A stretch of DNA of 64,000 nucleotides from Candidatus Moraniibacteriota bacterium. GTDB taxonomy: Bacteria; Patescibacteriota; Minisyncoccia; Moranbacterales; UBA2206. The stretch covers positions 8,594-72,593 of the forward strand of contig JBAQNU010000004.1 of NCBI GenBank assembly GCA_049304095.1. The letters are read 5' to 3'. Made by a program: the position numbers and the translations under genes. The notes under the pieces are model-generated. The model searched no databases. It was given only the letters and a program-made list of their open reading frames with translations, and was not told the origin of the DNA. Of the stretch, positions 32,876 to 50,536 are shown in pieces; position 1 is the stretch's first letter, and every line of letters starts with the position of its first letter.

Positions 32876-32926
32876 AGAGAAATTATAGCAAATTAATAAC
32901 TAAAGGACAAATTTTTTATTTATATC

Positions 32927-33079
32927 CCCTTCTCCCTCCGGGAGAAGGTGGCCGAAGGCCGGATGAGGGAGCTTTCAATATCATCAACGTTTTAATTCAA
33001 CTGTTACATTTTCTTTTCATTAGTGAGAACCCTCACCTGTCACGTGCTCGTGACATCCTCTCCCGGAGGGCGAGGAGGA
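32927..33079. other. GC-rich multi-hairpin intergenic region (candidate structured RNA / terminators / palindromic elements)
   Basis: ccttctccc-tcc-gggagaagg (9-bp stem), ggcc-gaa-ggcc (UUCG tetraloop on the minus strand), gtcacg-tgct-cgtgac, and cctctcccggagggcgaggagg. Much higher GC than the surroundings. Confidence 0.5.
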
Positions 33080-33086
33080 ATTTTGC

Positions 33087-34958
33087 CTATTTTTTCAAAA
33101 CCGCCAAAAATGCCTCCGATGGAATAGCCACTTTTCCAATGTTTTTCATCTTCTTTTTGCCTTTTTTCTGCTTTTCCAAAAGCTTTCTTTTTCTGGTGAT
33201 GTCTCCGCCATAAAGGCCACTAGTCACATCTTTGCGAAAAGCTTTGACAGTTTCACGTGCCAAGACTTTTCCGCCAATCGCCGCTTGAATGGCTATTTGG
33301 AAATTTTGCCGTGGAATGGAATCTTTCAATTTTTCCACAATGCGCTTGCCTTCACTGAACGCCCAAATTTTTGGCACAATGCGCGAAAAAGCTTCCACTT
33401 TTTCCTCAGCAATTATAATATCTAATTTGATAAGTTCATTGGCCCGATAGTCAGAAAGTTCATAATTCATTGAAGCGTAACCGGAAGAAGCGCTTTTGAG
33501 ATCATCATGCAAATTTGTAATGACATCCGTCAACGGACAATCAAATTTCAAAATCATCCGTTCGCTGTTGAGATATTCCGTATCAAGATACTGCGCGCGC
33601 GTATTTCGCATCATTTCCATGATCACACCGAGATAGCTTGATGGCGAAACAATTTCTAGATGCACATAGGGCTCAAAAATCGCTTCAATGGCGGAAGGGT
33701 CGGGCAATTCTGAGGGCGAATAGACTTTCAGGCGCTGCTCATTACTTTTGCCAACCAATTGAATTTCATAGACCACGCCAGGAGTCGTTATGGTTGGGCT
33801 GAGTTCAAATTCCGCTTCCAGACGAGCTTGGATTATTTCCAGGTGAAGTAGGCCCAAAAATCCGCAACGAAAACCCCGGCCAAGCGCCAGATTGCTTTCT
33901 GGCTCAAAAACAAATGCCGCGTCGTTCAATTTCAACTTAGAAAGTGCGTCGCGCATTAAATTATAATCATCGCCAGAAGTGGGATAGAATGAAGCATAAA
34001 CCATTGGACTGACTTCGCGATACCCTGGCAATTTTTCGATTTGTTTTTCAAATTTCGATAGTGTGACAGTATCGCCCACCTTGCAAAATTCCACACTTTT
34101 GAATCCCGTTGCAATGTAGCCAATTTCGCCAACTTTTAGCTTCGCTGTTTTTTGAAAGGCAGGCTTGAAATAGCCCACCTCAATCACGTCACTCTTGGCA
34201 CCAGTCGCCAGCATCAAGATTTCTTCTTCGGCGGAAATTCCCCCGTCAATCACGCGCACATAGGCTAGCACTCCTTTATAGGTGTCGTATTTCGAATCAA
34301 AAACAAGCGCACGCAAAGGTTTCGTTTCATCTCCACTCGGCGCTGGCACAACCTCAACAATTCGCTCTAAAAGTTTGTCCACGCCTTCGCCGGTTTTTCC
34401 CGACACTTCCAAAATATCCTCCTCTTTGCAACCAATAATATGCATAATTTCCGCCTTGGTTTTTTCCACGTCAGCATTGGGCAAATCAATTTTATTGGCC
34501 ACGGGAATAATCGTCAAATTATGCTCAATCGCTTGATAGAGGTTAGCCAGCGTCTGTGCCTGCACACCTTTCGTCGCATCCACCAAAAGCACCGCCCCTT
34601 CCACCGCCGCGAGAGAACGCGAAACCTCATAACCAAAATCAACATGCCCAGGAGTATCTATTAAATTTAAAATGTATTTCTCTTGTCCCCTCTCCTTACC
34701 AAGGAGAGGGTTAGGGTGAGGTGAATTTTGTTTGGAATTTGTATCTTGTAACTTGGAATTTTCCGTATGATACTCCATACGGACCGGTTGCATCTTAATC
34801 GTAATCCCCCGCTCACGCTCAAGATCCATCTGATCGAGCAGTTGTTCTTTCATCTTGCGCATCTCAACCGTGCCGGTAATTTCCAGCATTCGATCGGCCA
34901 AGGTCGACTTTCCATGGTCGATGTGGGCAATTATACAGAAATTTCGAATATTTTTCAT
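33087..34958 (-). CDS. lepA: elongation factor 4 (LepA)
   Basis: AHIDHGKST, DTPGH and NKID GTPase motifs plus the LepA C-terminal domain. Carries a roughly 24-aa in-frame insertion relative to canonical LepA before the DTPGH motif. Confidence 0.95.
   Translation of the reverse strand: MKNIRNFCIIAHIDHGKSTLADRMLEITGTVEMRKMKEQLLDQMDLERERGITIKMQPVRMEYHTENSKLQDTNSKQNSPHPNPLLGKERGQEKYILNLIDTPGHVDFGYEVSRSLAAVEGAVLLVDATKGVQAQTLANLYQAIEHNLTIIPVANKIDLPNADVEKTKAEIMHIIGCKEEDILEVSGKTGEGVDKLLERIVEVVPAPSGDETKPLRALVFDSKYDTYKGVLAYVRVIDGGISAEEEILMLATGAKSDVIEVGYFKPAFQKTAKLKVGEIGYIATGFKSVEFCKVGDTVTLSKFEKQIEKLPGYREVSPMVYASFYPTSGDDYNLMRDALSKLKLNDAAFVFEPESNLALGRGFRCGFLGLLHLEIIQARLEAEFELSPTITTPGVVYEIQLVGKSNEQRLKVYSPSELPDPSAIEAIFEPYVHLEIVSPSSYLGVIMEMMRNTRAQYLDTEYLNSERMILKFDCPLTDVITNLHDDLKSASSGYASMNYELSDYRANELIKLDIIIAEEKVEAFSRIVPKIWAFSEGKRIVEKLKDSIPRQNFQIAIQAAIGGKVLARETVKAFRKDVTSGLYGGDITRKRKLLEKQKKGKKKMKNIGKVAIPSEAFLAVLKK
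34689..34709. repeat. perfect 9-bp GC-rich palindrome (cctctcctt-acc-aaggagagg) inside the lepA insertion
   Basis: Seen in the sequence. Encodes part of NSPHPNPLLGKERGQ, which has no equivalent in canonical LepA. Confidence 0.8.
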
Positions 34959-35181
34959 AAATTTAATTAACTAACTTCCTGATTTTAACCTATTTTCAGC
35001 CAAAAAGCAATGGCTAGAATTAAACTTGATTTTTACTTTATAAAAAGGAAAAAATATGCTACATTGAAAACATACTAAGATGCATTTAATATTCAAAAAT
35101 ATTTCACATAATCTGCAAATCTTTGTCATTATTAAACAAAAAGTTCGTATATAAACGAGTTTAGCTAAAACAAAAAAAATC

Positions 35182-35499
35182 ATGTTCACAATCACATTCC
35201 TGCGCCAATTTAGAATCGGAGAATATGCTATTTTTGATTTTAGCGTAGCATTTTTGGGATTAGCTGTTTTATCCCCTCTGCTTTCATGGTTATGCCGTAA
35301 ACTTTTTAAACTGGAAATTCCTAAAAAGAATTGGGTAATTTTGACTTTACCAATTGGGATTGCGACCCACCTCATCACCGGCCCAGTAACACCAATGACC
35401 AAAAATTTTCTTGATCCAACTGGACACTATTTTTTGAAAATTTTTATCCTGGCTTTGTTGTTTTTCGGACTGCAAAATATTAGGAAGGTTAAGACGTAA
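35182..35499 (+). CDS. small membrane protein
   Basis: 105 aa with 3 hydrophobic helices. Confidence 0.4.
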   Translation: MFTITFLRQFRIGEYAIFDFSVAFLGLAVLSPLLSWLCRKLFKLEIPKKNWVILTLPIGIATHLITGPVTPMTKNFLDPTGHYFLKIFILALLFFGLQNIRKVKT

Positions 35500-35509
35500 T
35501 CAAAAAAAA

Positions 35510-47510: not shown

Positions 47511-47862
47511 GATCAAAGCAAATCTATAAGCCGGATTCTGTTGAAAATAGTAATTTATCTAGCGCCGACGTTACCGTCGGAGTCAAGCGGCACTTCCTGT
47601 ATTTAGCTAAAAACACAGGACACGACCTTGCATTCAGATAAGGATTTAGCCGTTTCACCCCCAAGGTTACCCTTGGGATTCACCCCAACGTAACGCCGGG
47701 GTGCTCTTTTCATTGCTGAAAAAAGCGTCTCTGCTCGCACCTCGCGGATCACTCCGTATGGGTATTACCCATTACCTTTCCCCCGACGTGACGTCGGGGA
47801 TGAATGTCCGGACTTTCCTCCCCGACGAATCGTCGGGGCTACTATTCAATTTGCTTTGATAA
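47511..47862 (-). ncRNA. rnpB: RNase P RNA, bacterial type A
   Basis: Minus strand carries the P4 strands GGAGGAAAGUCCGGAC (CR-I) and ACAGAAUCCGGCUUAUAG. P1 pairs AUCAAAGCAAAUU with AGAUUUGCUUUGAU. P3 hairpin CCCCGACGAUUCGUCGGGG. A GGGGUGAAACGG CR-II-like motif is present. Confidence 0.8.
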
Positions 47863-47926: not shown

Positions 47927-50536
47927 TTAGAGCAAATTATCAAGTAGCTCTGTTTGAATTTTCAACTTATCACTATATTCGACTAGCTTTACCTTATTAT
48001 TTGCAATGATTTCCTTTGGAGCACTTTTAACAAACTTCTTATTTCTAAGCAGTGTTTCGGTTTTTGCGATCAAATTTTTCAAATTTTCTATTTCTTTTTC
48101 CAGTCTCGCCTTTTCTTTTTCCACATCAACGAAGTCTGAGATTGCCAAAGTCAGCTTGATATTTTTTCCAGCAATCACAATACCTCTGGATTCGATTTTT
48201 GAGACTATATCAATTTTTATCCGCGCTAATTTTTCCAACACTTCTTTGTTTTCTATTTTTTTAGCGTAGACTTGGATTGTTTTTCCTGGATCAATGCGAT
48301 AGCTTGTGCGGATATTTCTAATCTTAGTTACTATTTGTTGGAAGTGTGCGAAATCCACTTGGGATTTTTTATCCAAAAGCTTCTTGTCCGCCACTGGCCA
48401 TTTTTCAACCATCAAAATACGCTTACTATTATACATATCTTGCCAAATTTTTTCTGTCACAAATGGCGCGAATGGGTGGGATAATTTCAAAATTTTATCA
48501 AGAACGTAGCCAAGCACTTTCGAATTCTTTTCGATTTTATTTATCTCAAGATACCAATCGGCAAAATCATTCCAAATAAATTTCTCGAGTGTCTCGCCTG
48601 CCAATGAAAATTTATATTCATTGAGGTTTTTGGTGATTTCTTCAATGGCTTTTCCAAGTTGAGTGACAATCCATTTGTCCGAAAGTGATTTCAAGTCTTT
48701 TTTACCAATGCTTTCAATCAAAGAAAATTTGCTGTCCGCGTGATCGCAGTAGCGATAAATGTTCCAGAGTTTAGTGACAAAATTTCGGTAACTGGAAATT
48801 TTTTCTTCGGAAAGTCGCATATCATTTCCCGGTGTTGAACCGATGAGAAGTGACAGTCGCACAGCGTCAGTGCCAAATTTTTCAATCATATCCACAGGAT
48901 TAATGCCATTACCTTTCGACTTGGACATTTTTTTGCCAAATTGATCCAGGACCATTCCGTGTAAATAGACATTTTCAAAAGGAATCTCATTCATCGCAAA
49001 CAGCGACATCATAATCATCCGCGAAACCCATAGCGTCAAAATTTCATAACCAGTTTCCAAAACTTGCGTTGGATGAAATTTGGCCAAATCCCCTGTCTTT
49101 TTTTCATTCTTAATATTTGTTGGCCAGCCTAGCGTTGAAAATGACCACATTCCCGAAGAAAACCAGGTATCAAAAGTGTCTGGGTCTTTTGTCCAGCCCT
49201 TGCCTTTTGGCGCTTTTTCGCCGACGAATATTTCTTTTTTATCACCTTCTCCTTTATACCAAACAGGAAATTCATGCCCAAACCAAATTTGACGAGAGAT
49301 ACACCAATCATGCAACTTAGTCATCCAATCAATGTAGCGTTTCGTGAAGCGAAAAGGGTGAAATTTAATTTTGCCATTCTTCGCCACTTCGAGTGCTTTT
49401 TCTTTAAGTGATTTTCCACCAAAACGTTTCAGTTTTTTGTCCACCGCCAAAAACCATTGTTCAGAAGGAATTGGTTCGATTGTAGTTCCGCAACGATAAC
49501 ATGTTGCCAGATTATGTTTATAGCCCTCCTCGACATGATCAATAAGCCCCATCTTTTCCATATCCGCTACAATTGCCTTTCTCGCTTCTGTCGTCGTCAT
49601 GCCAGCATATTTTCCGCAATTAGCCATCATTTTTCCGTCCTCATTGATAATTTGTTTCATGGCGATGTTGTGACGCTGGGAAATTGCATAGTCCGTAAAA
49701 TCATGCGCCGGAGTAACCTTAATTGCTCCGCTACCAAATTTAGGATCCACTTCTTTATCCGCCACAACAACAATTTCAAATTCTCCCAACACTCCGGGAA
49801 TCATAAATTTCTTACCCACCATTTTCGCATAACGCTTGTCGCCAGGATAGACTGCCACAGCCGTGTCACCAAGTTTCGTTTCCGGTCGCGAAGTCGCCAA
49901 AACAAACGGACCGTATTTAATCCAATACAATTTTCCAATTTCTTCCTTATACTCCACTTCGTCATCCGCCAAAGTGGATTTGCAACGCGGACACCAATTC
50001 ACAATTCTTTTTCCGCGATAAACCAACCCTTCGGCGTGCATATCCAAAAACATTTTCGTCACCGCCTTTTGCCTCTGGGCGTCTAACGTGAAAGCTTCAC
50101 GTGACCAATCAAAAGAGCCTCCCATTTTGCGCGCTTGTTTCAAGATCGTCGCCTGAGTCACTCGCAAAAATTTCCACACTTCTTCCAAAAATTTTTCCCG
50201 ACCCAAATCATGGCGAGTCAGTCCTTGTTCTTTGAGTAGCTTTTTCTCTACCACGTTTTGCGTGGCAATTGAAGCATGATCAGTTCCAGGAAGGTAGAGC
50301 GCCCGATATCCTTTCATGCGATGAAAGCGAATAAGCAAATCTTCAATGGCAATAATCGAAGCGTGCCCAAGATGCAGTTTGTCCGTAATATTCGGTGGCG
50401 GAAGAATAATCGTGTATGGTTTGGCATTTTTCGGCAACTTCAAATTATCCGGATTAAATTTTCCGCTCTTTTCCCAAAGCGCATAAATCTTGTCTTCATA
50501 TTTTTGGGGTTCGTAGGTTTTTGGGATTTCTTTCAT
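47927..50536 (-). CDS. valS: valyl-tRNA synthetase
   Basis: HLGHASIIAIEDLLIRFHRMKGY (HIGH), KMSKSKGN, 869 aa, plus a C-terminal coiled coil. Confidence 0.95.
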   Translation of the reverse strand: MKEIPKTYEPQKYEDKIYALWEKSGKFNPDNLKLPKNAKPYTIILPPPNITDKLHLGHASIIAIEDLLIRFHRMKGYRALYLPGTDHASIATQNVVEKKLLKEQGLTRHDLGREKFLEEVWKFLRVTQATILKQARKMGGSFDWSREAFTLDAQRQKAVTKMFLDMHAEGLVYRGKRIVNWCPRCKSTLADDEVEYKEEIGKLYWIKYGPFVLATSRPETKLGDTAVAVYPGDKRYAKMVGKKFMIPGVLGEFEIVVVADKEVDPKFGSGAIKVTPAHDFTDYAISQRHNIAMKQIINEDGKMMANCGKYAGMTTTEARKAIVADMEKMGLIDHVEEGYKHNLATCYRCGTTIEPIPSEQWFLAVDKKLKRFGGKSLKEKALEVAKNGKIKFHPFRFTKRYIDWMTKLHDWCISRQIWFGHEFPVWYKGEGDKKEIFVGEKAPKGKGWTKDPDTFDTWFSSGMWSFSTLGWPTNIKNEKKTGDLAKFHPTQVLETGYEILTLWVSRMIMMSLFAMNEIPFENVYLHGMVLDQFGKKMSKSKGNGINPVDMIEKFGTDAVRLSLLIGSTPGNDMRLSEEKISSYRNFVTKLWNIYRYCDHADSKFSLIESIGKKDLKSLSDKWIVTQLGKAIEEITKNLNEYKFSLAGETLEKFIWNDFADWYLEINKIEKNSKVLGYVLDKILKLSHPFAPFVTEKIWQDMYNSKRILMVEKWPVADKKLLDKKSQVDFAHFQQIVTKIRNIRTSYRIDPGKTIQVYAKKIENKEVLEKLARIKIDIVSKIESRGIVIAGKNIKLTLAISDFVDVEKEKARLEKEIENLKNLIAKTETLLRNKKFVKSAPKEIIANNKVKLVEYSDKLKIQTELLDNLL

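What the first reader, a model, noticed from the sequence alone, without database searches (positions are those of the whole stretch)
34660..34770. In-frame GC-rich palindromic insertion inside lepA (RPE-like)
LepA carries about 24 extra residues (…TENSKLQDTNSKQNSPHPNPLLGKERGQEK…) between the G2 region and DTPGH. The coding DNA contains a perfect 9-bp inverted repeat, cctctcctt-acc-aaggagagg, at 34689-34709, in a locally GC-rich patch. A closely related palindrome, ccttctccc-tcc-gggagaagg, lies in the intergenic region just downstream of lepA at 32929-32949. This resembles Rickettsia palindromic elements, which insert in-frame into conserved genes.
Basis: partly seen in the sequence, partly recalled or inferred. 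Interest (0 to 1): 0.6.

Follow-up and report, generated by a model that had tools for sequence, protein, structure and literature searches.

The report
Triplex-motif repeat inserted in-frame in lepA
The palindrome inside lepA is real: it is a 37-base copy of a known, widespread bacterial repeat (BoxC / PIT / triplex motif) that sits in-frame in a surface loop of the protein, a location not reported for this repeat in the papers I could search.

Summary
The lepA gene of this Candidatus Moraniibacteriota (CPR) genome carries about 29 extra codons in the beta-hairpin turn between the G2 motif and DTPGH. These codons contain a perfect 10-bp stem with a 3-nt loop.

The RPE label does not hold. The hairpin plus its flank (window 34686-34722) is a 37-nt three-block motif: CCCTCTCCTT-ACC-AAGGAGAGGG-TTA-GGGTGAGGT. 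That makes it a variant of the BoxC / PIT / "TM" intrastrand-triplex repeat of E. coli (Holder et al. 2015).

- Two more copies lie just downstream of the lepA stop codon.
- The same 37-mer occurs in more than 120 metagenome contigs (GC 32-64%), about 13 times per E. coli genome, and on plasmids of Azospirillum, Sinorhizobium and Nostoc.
- About a quarter of the metagenome copies are in-frame inside housekeeping genes (ValRS, PNPase, UvrA, UvrC, MurB, MurC, AtpG, DHFR and others).
- In lepA the element occurs only in scattered Moranbacteria lineages. Sister genes that are 86-92% identical differ by exactly 42 nt.
- The element's codons are far more conserved than the rest of the gene (81% vs 48% synonymous identity).
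- All three blocks co-vary.

The family is known. The in-frame position and the CPR host appear to be new. How the element moves remains unknown.

The parts
33087..34958 (-). lepA (elongation factor 4), 623 aa, host gene
   Evidence: ORF list. It is 100% identical to a protein named translation elongation factor 4 from Candidatus Moraniibacteriota. PDB LepA matches at E 1e-63.
34677..34769 (-). Whole in-frame insert, codons H64-K94, placed in the turn of a beta-hairpin of the G domain
   Evidence: Alignment of 120 orthologues and 80 species representatives. HMMER splits the alignment to E. coli and A. aeolicus LepA exactly here. The AlphaFold model has strands 59-64 and 94-101, with residues 67-91 at pLDDT below 50 and no secondary structure.
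34686..34722 (+). 37-nt triplex-motif (BoxC/PIT/TM-type) element. On the + strand: block 1 CCCTCTCCTT 34688-34697, loop ACC 34698-34700, block 2 AAGGAGAGGG 34701-34710, loop TTA 34711-34713, block 3 GGGTGAGGT 34714-34722. The C-rich complement is the lepA sense strand and encodes S-PHPNPLLGKERG.
   Evidence: My own motif finder gave 0 G/C-rich hits in 20 shuffles. Edges come from base frequencies over 127 copies. BLAST to E. coli gave 86-89% identity over 95% of the query. The published consensus is in PMC4666352.
34728..34755 (-). Degenerate heptanucleotide array (CAAGTTA CAAGATA CAAATTC CAAACAA) forming the 5' half of the insert (NSKLQDTNSKQN)
   Evidence: Read directly from the sequence. 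TRF does not score it in the window. It does find clean period-7 arrays at the same lepA site in relatives, including the unit CAAGATA in L013.
34762..34783 (-). Junction hairpin TCCGTATG-GAGTAT-CATACGGA. The first 8 nt of the insert are the reverse complement of the lepA codons just upstream.
   Evidence: Perfect 8-bp stem. It is predicted in the RNA fold.
32928..32969 (+). Intergenic triplex-motif copy: block 1 CCTTCTCCC, loop TCC, block 2 GGGAGAAGG, loop 2 TGGCCGAAGGCC (a mini-hairpin), block 3 GGATGAGGG
   Evidence: Motif finder, 0 mismatches in all three blocks. Hairpin list.
33030..33076 (-). Intergenic triplex-motif copy in the opposite orientation, 11 nt after the lepA stop codon: block 1 TCCTCGCCC (one mismatch), loop TCC, block 2 GGGAGAGGA, loop 2 an 18-nt hairpin, block 3 GGTGAGGG. 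Together with 32928-32969 it forms an inverted pair.
   Evidence: 26-nt inverted arms at 32925-32950 and 33054-33079, 81% complementary. Blocks read by hand. DNA fold z-score -4.6.

Best explanation
The palindrome in lepA is a 37-nt copy of the BoxC / PIT / 'TM' family, a G/C-rich repeat able to form an intrastrand triplex. It is embedded in-frame in the DNA that encodes the turn of a beta-hairpin in the LepA G domain.

**Shown**
- The element has a pyrimidine block, a complementary purine block and a mirror-image G-rich third block.
- It belongs to a family spread across many bacterial groups, with sharp 37-nt edges.
- Its C-rich strand is the sense strand. Both reading frames seen in genes on this strand are free of stop codons and give Pro/Leu/Lys/Glu/Gly-rich peptides (PHPNPLL.KER. 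or TSPQPSP..GEG).
- The insert falls in a region the model predicts to be disordered, between two conserved strands.
- The DNA of the element is kept much more tightly than synonymous sites in the rest of the gene.

**Inferred**
- The element arrived at the DNA level, by an unknown mechanism with no target-site duplication. It survives only where the addition is a multiple of three and the loop tolerates extra residues.
- The tight DNA conservation and three-way co-variation reflect a constraint on nucleic-acid structure, copy correction between elements, or repeated re-insertion.
- The same loop is a hotspot. In other lineages it holds a TM in the opposite orientation, other G/C-rich palindromes, heptamer tandem arrays and a whole PDDEXK_3 domain. 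In this genome a TM and a decayed heptamer array lie side by side.
For: **Family identity**
- Three-block architecture, with 0 G/C-rich hits in shuffles.
- 86-89% identity to E. coli copies, median 13 places per genome.
- The E. coli phnE-phnD spacer reads CCCTCTCCC-TGTG-GGGAGAGGG-CCG-GGGTGAGGG and, on the other strand, CCCTCTCCC-TTGA-GGGAGAGGG-TTA-GGGTGAGGG. Both match the published TM_ECO consensus.
- The window copy differs from that consensus at the ninth position of all three blocks together (C-G*G becomes T-A*T).

**Spread**
- More than 120 metagenome stretches with unrelated flanks, 3 viral contigs and 90 plasmid records.

**Third block is a real feature**
- 235 of 476 G/C-rich pyrimidine/purine hairpins have a mirror third block downstream, against 41 and 29 in two controls. 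Many subfamilies co-vary in all three blocks.

**In-frame copies**
- 35 of 132 copies lie in long ORFs, 31 of them on the C-rich strand.
- Pfam domains span the insert in ValRS, UvrC, Mur ligase, AtpG, MurB, RsmA, DHFR and PPDK. In PNPase and UvrA the domain match lies to one side of it.

**lepA specifics**
- All 7 orthologues with DNA available keep the palindrome with the same codons.
- Synonymous codon identity is 0.81 in the core against 0.48 in the rest of lepA; nucleotide identity is 0.89 against 0.72.
- TM-bearing genes sit in at least 7 separate places on the tree.
- Sister genes at 92% and 86% DNA identity differ by a clean 42 nt.
- L084 carries the CCTTCTCC / GGAGAAGG / GGATGAGG subfamily, and L089 carries a TM in the opposite orientation at the same site.
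- The loop location is supported.
Against: - The strict published regular expression (CCCTCNCCC...GGGNGAGGG...GGGNGAGGG) is not matched, so this is a variant.
- Triplex formation was not tested for this variant. Even for the E. coli motif it was seen only in isolated single strands, not in duplex DNA or in vivo (PMC4666352).
- Only three copies are visible in 64 kb, and the whole genome was not available.
- No mobilising enzyme was found.
- The lepA copies share a fixed 42-nt length and similar tails after the 37-mer. That fits one old insertion with many losses, or spread by recombination, as well as it fits repeated insertion.
- The pairwise codon statistics are not phylogenetically independent.
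- Nothing shows that the insert is translated rather than removed.
Confidence: 0.85

Rival explanations
1. It is a member of the Rickettsia palindromic element (RPE) families, or a direct analogue specific to CPR bacteria.
For: It is palindromic, in-frame, in a conserved housekeeping gene and in a surface loop, with other copies in spacers. This matches what is reported for RPEs (PMC3184786).
Against: - It is 37 nt, not about 105-146 bp.
- It is not lineage-specific: the same sequence is in E. coli, Azospirillum, Nostoc and metagenome contigs of 32-64% GC.
- It has a third mirror block, a feature the sources I read do not describe for RPEs.
Confidence: 0.03
2. It is a REP/REPIN-type element mobilised by a RAYT (IS200/IS605-like HUH transposase). 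The flank next to the hairpin would be the transposase guide or cleavage sequence rather than a triplex strand.
For: - The size of 20-40 nt fits, and it is a G/C-rich hairpin with a conserved flank on one side only.
- Copies often occur as inverted pairs, in the window at 32928-33076 and in L126 and L135.
- No target-site duplication was found, as expected for IS200/IS605-type single-strand transposition.
Against: - REP families are species- or genus-specific and tied to a local RAYT gene. This sequence is nearly identical across distant groups.
- Holder et al. found no transposase or integrase remnants near E. coli copies.
- No IS200-like hit in the window, though the test was weak.
- The flank co-varies with the purine arm as a mirror repeat over 8-9 positions. 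The triplex model predicts this directly; a short guide tetranucleotide would not explain 8-9 co-varying positions.
Confidence: 0.1
3. The insert is an old, vertically inherited protein feature of a Moranbacteria LepA subgroup. The palindrome would be a by-product of the peptide P-L-L-x-K-E-R.
For: The position, reading frame and 42-nt length are the same in all simple cases, and the tails after the core are similar.
Against: - The same amino acids could be written with many codon combinations (Leu has 6 codons, Pro 4, Arg 6), yet the same ones are used: 0.81 against 0.48 synonymous identity.
- The identical 37-mer is found in non-coding DNA and in a dozen unrelated proteins, in two different frames.
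- Its distribution on the LepA tree is patchy, with close sister genes lacking it.
- Most Patescibacteria have no insert.
Confidence: 0.02
4. It is a functional RNA hairpin within the lepA mRNA, for example a translational pause or a regulatory stem that hides the internal AAGGAG, selected for that role.
For: - The stem is predicted in the RNA fold, with z = -3.1 for the 131-nt region.
- The 3' arm AAGGAGAGG resembles a Shine-Dalgarno sequence.
- Some spacer copies sit 5-15 nt before a start codon.
Against: - Enrichment in front of start codons is weak: 17 against 9 of 128.
- PIT elements showed no promoter or terminator activity in E. coli (PMC4666352).
- No Rfam family matches.
- The conserved third block has no role in a simple hairpin. 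[quoted passage not shown]
Confidence: 0.05

Closest known systems
BoxC / PIT (potential intrastrand triplex) element / TM_ECO of E. coli and other Proteobacteria (Holder et al. 2015, NAR 43:10126, PMC4666352; that paper cites earlier work from the 1990s and by Maher and colleagues in 2000)
   Same: - 37 nt long.
- A 9-10 nt pyrimidine block, a 3-6 nt loop, a complementary purine block, a 3-nt loop (TTA, the paper's 'type A') and a mirror G-rich block.
- 86-89% sequence identity.
- Dispersed, in many copies, sometimes as inverted pairs.
- No transposase nearby and no target-site duplication.
   Different: - The ninth triad is T-A*T instead of C-G*G, so the strict consensus is not matched.
- The host is a CPR bacterium. 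The paper reports TM_ECO itself only in 262 proteobacterial genomes, plus related G/C-rich motifs in cyanobacteria.
- The lepA copy is inside a gene and in-frame, whereas the paper states that TM_ECO is always intergenic in E. coli K-12.
- The two spacer copies have hairpins of 12 and 18 nt in loop 2.
Rickettsia palindromic elements (RPE; Ogata et al. 2000, as cited in PMC3184786)
   Same: A palindromic repeat found in-frame inside conserved protein genes as well as in spacers, and tolerated because it lands on the protein surface.
   Different: RPEs are about 105-146 bp and restricted to Rickettsia. The sources I read do not describe a triplex-type third block for them. There is no sequence relationship that I could test.
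REP / REPIN elements with RAYT transposases (Bertels and Rainey 2011, PMC3116915; Nunvar et al. 2010)
   Same: A short G/C-rich hairpin with a conserved flank. Inverted pairs are common. They are normally extragenic.
   Different: REP families are specific to a genome and linked to a RAYT gene. This element is nearly identical across distant groups, and no RAYT was seen.
Other repeats reported inside protein genes (the BRE repeat of Bordetella; RUP, BOX and SPRITE of pneumococcus; reviewed in PMC3184786)
   Same: Small repeats fused to or embedded in open reading frames.
   Different: They have different sequences and sizes. Apart from the BRE inserts, the gene-internal examples that review gives are disruptions or terminal extensions rather than in-frame additions to a loop in essential genes.

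Membership tests
BoxC / PIT / TM (G/C-rich intrastrand triplex motif) | Three consecutive blocks: a pyrimidine block, a complementary purine block after a 3-6 nt loop, and a third G-rich block that mirrors the purine block (G*G, A*A or T*A triads) with at most one mismatch | tested here: met
   Window 34688-34722 has 9 of 9 valid triads, with a tenth position mismatched. Window 32928-32969 has 9 of 9. There were 0 G/C-rich hits in 20 shuffles.
BoxC / PIT / TM (G/C-rich intrastrand triplex motif) | Match to the published TM_ECO pattern CCCTCNCCC-N3-6-GGGNGAGGG-N3-GGGNGAGGG | tested here: not met
   The window has CCCTCTCCT / AGGAGAGGG / GGGTGAGGT. The ninth position differs in all three blocks in a coordinated way (read). 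Overall identity to E. coli copies is still 86-89%. I therefore file it as a variant, not as TM_ECO itself.
BoxC / PIT / TM (G/C-rich intrastrand triplex motif) | Dispersed, multi-copy, with highly conserved stems and variable loops | tested here: met
   More than 120 metagenome stretches, with loop 1 variable (ATA, GGA, GGT, AGT and others) and edges fixed. Only 3 copies could be counted in this genome, because only 64 kb was available.
BoxC / PIT / TM (G/C-rich intrastrand triplex motif) | Intergenic location (stated for E. coli K-12) | tested here: not met
   The lepA copy is inside the coding sequence, as are 35 of 132 metagenome copies. The two copies after the lepA stop codon are intergenic.
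BoxC / PIT / TM (G/C-rich intrastrand triplex motif) | The isolated G-rich strand folds into a stable triplex (CD / NMR) | not testable with these tools
   The only indirect support is three-way co-variation across subfamilies.
Rickettsia palindromic elements (RPE) | Length about 105-146 bp, Rickettsia-specific families | tested here: not met
   The unit is 37 nt. The host is Moraniibacteriota, and the sequence is also in E. coli, Azospirillum and Nostoc.
Rickettsia palindromic elements (RPE) | In-frame insertion in conserved genes at surface positions | tested here: met
Rickettsia palindromic elements (RPE) | Sequence similarity to RPE consensus sequences | not tested
REP / REPIN with RAYT | A RAYT (Y1 HUH transposase) gene in the genome, typically flanked by REPs | tested here: inconclusive
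Only 64 kb was searched.
REP / REPIN with RAYT | A family specific to a species or genus | tested here: not met
   Near-identical copies occur across contigs of 32-64% GC and in several bacterial groups.
MITE | Terminal inverted repeats plus a target-site duplication | tested here: not met
   No convincing duplication of 3-6 nt at any offset among 127 copies: short matches were only modestly above expectation and inconsistent in register. The element is a single hairpin plus a one-sided flank.

The most novel reading that the evidence does not exclude
TM/BoxC elements may be an active mobile element found across many bacterial groups, with an as yet unknown mobilising activity, that repeatedly targets the same short stretches of DNA encoding beta-hairpin turns in essential genes (lepA, valS, uvrC, pnp and others). 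The lepA loop would then have been hit independently several times in Moranbacteria: by different subfamilies, in both orientations, and with filled and empty sites in sister genomes. The element's triplex or hairpin structure might also seed further local instability, such as the heptamer arrays and the capture of a PDDEXK_3 domain.
Probability: 0.25. Interest if true: 0.8.

Novelty: new variant of a known kind. Interest (0 to 1): 0.55.

Why it matters
The BoxC/PIT/TM motif has been known since the 1990s, but neither its function nor its way of spreading is known. In E. coli it was described as strictly intergenic.

This case adds three things:
- **Natural filled and empty sites.** The same 37-mer sits in-frame in essential genes of CPR bacteria and is present or absent between close relatives. 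This gives filled-versus-empty pairs on a conserved, alignable background, which is what is needed to work out the insertion mechanism.
- **Support for the triplex model.** The three-way co-variation across subfamilies is comparative evidence that the triplex-type architecture, not just the hairpin, is what is preserved.
- **A practical signature.** The peptides PHPNPLL.KER. and TSPQPSP..GEG. mark this DNA element in predicted proteins and explain part of the length variation of CPR housekeeping proteins.

Tried and rejected
- **Rfam.** Nothing matches the element. The CCCCGACG palindromes at 47781-47838 turned out to be helices of RNase P RNA.
- **Portable Shine-Dalgarno idea.** Enrichment before start codons is only 17 against 9 of 128 copies, so I did not pursue it.
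- **Target-site duplication.** No convincing one at any offset for 3-6 nt. Comparing filled and empty lepA sites did not reveal one either.
- **TRF on the window insert.** No array scored, so the heptamer reading for the window rests on inspection plus the clean arrays in relatives.
- **IS200 TnpA tblastn against the window.** No hit; a weak test.
- **Isolated phage genomes.** Only 3 weak records.
- **Literature.** Searches for CPR in-frame palindromic insertions found nothing relevant.
- **Missing DNA.** No DNA was available for two TM-bearing orthologues, P0040 and P0009.
- **Assembly artefact.** I judged this unlikely: the exact protein cluster has 24 member sequences on 4 contigs, and related copies come from independent assemblies.
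Full report
**1. The observation**

lepA lies at 33087-34958 on the minus strand and encodes 623 residues. The protein is 100% identical to a database entry named translation elongation factor 4 of a Candidatus Moraniibacteriota bacterium, a member of the Candidate Phyla Radiation.

Between VRMEY and YILNLIDTPGH it carries HTENSKLQDTNSKQNSPHPNPLLGKERGQEK. The DNA contains a perfect inverted repeat, CCCTCTCCTT-ACC-AAGGAGAGGG, at 34688-34710. No dinucleotide shuffle of the window gave even a 3-mismatch match.

The insert as a whole is not G/C-rich. 60-nt windows across it read 32-42% GC, which is lower than most of lepA. Only the 37-nt core is G/C-rich (57% by my count).

**2. Distribution among LepA orthologues**

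I aligned 120 orthologues that are 71-100% identical and read the same region in 80 species-representative genomes.

- The usual state in Patescibacteria is 2-6 residues between the two strands, for example NYKEYILNL.
- The closest species representative, L004 (91% identical), has no insert.
- The site is a hotspot. Different lineages carry the PHPNPLL.KER. peptide (P0001, 3, 9, 17, 21, 30, 34, 40, 47), N/S/K/Q-rich peptides, other Pro/Gly-rich peptides (RPDYGTPPL.TGEGE, PTGRQAGQ), or a whole PDDEXK_3 domain (P0002 and P0116).

HMMER alignment to the solved LepA structures breaks exactly at residues 67-91. An AlphaFold model built on 40 orthologues has strands at 59-64 and 94-101. Residues 67-91 between them have pLDDT below 50 and no secondary structure. 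The insert therefore extends the turn of a beta-hairpin in the G domain.

**3. The palindrome is a DNA feature, not a by-product of the peptide**

I obtained DNA for seven lepA genes with the PHPNPLL.KER. insert. All keep CCTCTCCTT-nnn-AAGGAGAGG with the same codons.

| Measure | Element core | Rest of lepA | Source |
|---|---|---|---|
| Same codon where the amino acid is identical | 81% | 48% | |
| Nucleotide identity | 0.89 | 0.72 | |

The Fisher p-value for the codon comparison is 2e-18, but the pairs are not independent.

**4. What the element is**

A degenerate pattern built from the lepA copies hit 3 viral contigs. These contigs range from 32% to 64% GC, and their flanks are unrelated.

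Base frequencies over 127 distinct copies give sharp edges and a 37-nt unit: ACCT-CAYCCNRAY-CCTCTCCTT-NNN-AAGGAGAGG-GRR.

BLAST of the 38-mer found it in the following places:
- on plasmids and secondary replicons of Azospirillum, Sinorhizobium, Rhizobium, Nostoc, Pseudanabaena, Aeromonas and Acinetobacter;
- in 5401 of 5426 complete E. coli genomes, with a median of 13 places per genome, and 86-89% identity over 95% of the query in 4652 of them.

The E. coli phnE-phnD spacer holds two such copies. They fit the consensus CCCTCNCCC-N3-6-GGGNGAGGG-N3-GGGNGAGGG. Holder et al. (PMC4666352) give this consensus for TM_ECO, the motif earlier called BoxC or PIT element. According to that paper:
- there are 23 copies in K-12, all intergenic;
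- there are 3610 copies in 262 proteobacterial genomes;
- related G/C-rich motifs abound in cyanobacteria;
- no transposase is associated with the motif, and loci carrying it are unusually variable between strains.

**5. The window copy has the same architecture**

Read on the + strand, the copy in lepA is:

| Part | Sequence | Coordinates |
|---|---|---|
| Block 1 | CCCTCTCCTT | 34688-34697 |
| Loop 1 | ACC | 34698-34700 |
| Block 2 | AAGGAGAGGG | 34701-34710 |
| Loop 2 | TTA (the paper's type A loop) | 34711-34713 |
| Block 3 | GGGTGAGGT | 34714-34722 |

Block 3 mirrors block 2 with G*G, A*A and T*A triads at 9 of 9 positions. Compared with TM_ECO, the ninth position is changed in all three blocks together: C-G*G becomes T-A*T.

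My finder reports two G/C-rich motifs in the window and none in 20 shuffles.

A third copy lies on the other strand at 33030-33076, 11 nt after the lepA stop codon. It has one mismatch in block 1 and an 18-nt hairpin in loop 2 (read; inverted arms). These two copies form an inverted pair like the 'palindromic TM' arrangement described for E. coli.

**6. Three-way co-variation**

Of these, 235 have a mirror third block (at most 1 mismatch) within 2-20 nt downstream. The direct-order control gave 41 and the upstream control gave 29.

Subfamilies that my search pattern did not select change all three blocks coherently. Examples:
- CCTTCTCCT / AGGAGAAGG / GGATGAGGT
- CCCCTTCCT / AGGAAGGGG / GGGGATGGT
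- CCCCCTCCT / AGGAGGGGG / GGGGGTGGT
- TCTCCTTCC / GGAAGGAGA / AGAGGATGG

This is comparative support for the triplex-type layout being the conserved unit.

**7. In-frame copies are a general phenomenon**

Of 132 metagenome copies, 35 lie in stop-free stretches of at least 150 codons, with at least 40 codons on each side. In 31 of those the C-rich strand is the sense strand. Only two frames were seen on that strand: PHPNPLL.KER. and TSPQPSP..GEG..

Pfam confirms ten host proteins:

| Host protein | Locus |
|---|---|
| Class I tRNA synthetase (ValRS) | L187 |
| PNPase | L177 |
| UvrC | L134 |
| UvrA | L166 |
| Mur ligase | L190 |
| ATP synthase gamma | L188 |
| MurB | L200 |
| RsmA/KsgA | L130 |
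| DHFR | L192 |
| PPDK-type enzyme | L106 |

In most of these the domain match runs across the insert. In PNPase and UvrA the match lies to one side of it.

The ValRS host is again Moraniibacteriota. In ValRS the loop VWYK..EIYVG behaves like the lepA loop. Some orthologues carry the TM peptide, and others carry RPDYGTPPL.TGEGE or N/S/K/Q-rich peptides. The window's own valS (47930-50536, minus strand) has no TM.

**8. One insertion or several?**

On a neighbour-joining tree built with the insert masked, the TM-bearing LepA sequences fall in at least seven separate places, each with insert-free neighbours.

- L084 (with TM) and L214 (without) are 92% identical in DNA and differ by a clean 42 nt. 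L085 and L215 (86% identical) differ in the same way.
- L084 carries the CCTTCTCC / GGAGAAGG / GGATGAGG subfamily, which differs from the window copy at one position in each of the three blocks.
- L089 carries a TM_ECO-like copy in the opposite orientation at the same site.

These points favour at least two or three independent events, or copy correction between elements.

Against that, the simple cases share the same codon position, the same 42-nt length and similar two-codon tails. That is what a single old insertion with repeated loss, or spread by recombination, would leave. I found no target-site duplication. I cannot settle this question with the data at hand.

**9. The 5' half of the window insert**

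The part encoding NSKLQDTNSKQN reads as four degenerate heptamers: CAAGTTA CAAGATA CAAATTC CAAACAA (34728-34755). TRF does not score it.

TRF does find clean period-7 arrays at the same lepA site in relatives:
- AAATTTC x4.9 in L005
- CAAGATA x4.4 in L013
- AATTTTC and AAATCCG in L025
- AAAATCC in L038

The window insert is therefore composite: a decayed heptamer array followed by a TM.

At its 5' junction, the first eight bases of the insert (CATACGGA) are the reverse complement of the lepA codons just upstream (TCCGTATG), giving a perfect 8-bp hairpin at 34762-34783.

**10. Mechanism**

Shown:
- the family assignment, the architecture and the edges of the unit;
- the in-frame position in a region predicted to be disordered;
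- nucleotide-level conservation beyond what coding requires;
- the bias towards the C-rich strand as sense strand;
- the recurrence in other essential genes.

Inferred:
- insertion happens at the DNA level, and selection keeps only additions that are multiples of three in tolerant loops;
- the element is tolerated as coding sequence because the frames used on its C-rich strand lack stop codons and encode flexible, hydrophilic peptides;
- the structure of the element, or exchange between copies, keeps its sequence.

Unknown: what moves it.

The REP/RAYT-type route (single-strand hairpin recognition by an HUH transposase) is the most concrete rival. It deserves a genome-wide test.

**11. Novelty**

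The repeat family is known. In the literature I could search I did not find it described in CPR bacteria, or as an in-frame insert in protein genes, or as a recurrent occupant of the same loops. The key paper states the opposite for E. coli, where the motif is always intergenic. I therefore rate this a new variant of a known kind, of moderate interest.

Noticed in passing
L001 1166-1759 (protein P0002); also P0116: A complete PDDEXK_3 (PF13366, GxxExxY-type nuclease) domain of about 150 residues is inserted in-frame at exactly the same lepA loop. P0002 is otherwise 98% identical in protein to the window's LepA (83% in DNA). P0012 and P0056 carry what look like remnants of its flanks.
   Followed up: partly
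L005 230-263, L013 2693-2723, L025 2697-2759, L026 2687-2738, L038 2697-2728 (lepA hotspot in relatives): Clean heptanucleotide tandem arrays (period 7, 4-5 copies) sit in-frame in the lepA loop. In L005 the array appears to extend the native ATTTTAAATTTA (ILNL) sequence. A repeat period that is not a multiple of three inside an essential gene is unusual.
   Followed up: partly
L032 2230-2500: Upstream of lepA in a distant patescibacterial genome there are two TM copies, one with a second palindrome (CCTGCCTGCGCAGGCAGG) nested in it. There is also a 45-nt duplicate of the lepA 5' end (ATGAATAAAATTAGAAATTTCTGCATCATCGCGCATATCGATCAC) followed by G/C-rich sequence before the real start codon.
   Followed up: no
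window 34762-34783: A perfect 8-bp hairpin, TCCGTATG-GAGTAT-CATACGGA, spans the 5' junction of the insert. The first insert codons (His-Thr-Glu) are the reverse complement of the Arg-Met codons of lepA. YH(T/S/A) starts many of the N/S/K/Q-type inserts in other orthologues, which hints at a fold-back origin.
   Followed up: no
window 47511-47857 (-): Bacterial RNase P RNA class A (134 bits). The G/C-rich palindromes CCCCGACG-nnn-CGTCGGGG at 47781-47799 and 47820-47838 are helices of this RNA, not repeat elements.
   Followed up: yes
window 47930-50536 (-) and proteins P0121-P0240: valS of this genome lies in the window. Its loop VWYK..EIFVG is a second insertion hotspot in Patescibacteria. Orthologues carry the TM peptide TSPQPSPYKGEG (P0121, P0137, P0139, P0142), RPDYGTPPL.TGEGE (P0175, P0177; the same peptide as in LepA P0043 and P0074) or KSQIPISNEIPNSKSQ-type peptides. 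The window copy has none of these.
   Followed up: partly
L126 6900-7750, L137 800-1560, L171, L158: Some metagenome contigs hold arrays of 3-4 TM copies. In these, the CCCTCTCC subfamily alternates with inverted copies of the CCTTCTCC subfamily at a spacing of about 110 nt, resembling REPIN-like doublets.
   Followed up: no
L133, L135, L175, L204 (metagenome loci); L089 1510-1590: A longer 'closed' form of the element has both flanks: ACCTCACCC ... hairpin ... GGGTGAGGT. It often has a GCC-TTCG-GGC mini-hairpin in the second loop, and a GGCC-GAAG-GCC mini-hairpin occupies the same loop at window 32949-32960.
   Followed up: no
L001 205-1008, L002 187-1002, L089 504-1319, L214 310-1131: In several relatives a tyrosine recombinase (Phage_integrase family) gene lies immediately upstream of lepA. 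The ORF list for the stretch just upstream of lepA in the window (34971-35500) shows no gene of that size.
   Followed up: no
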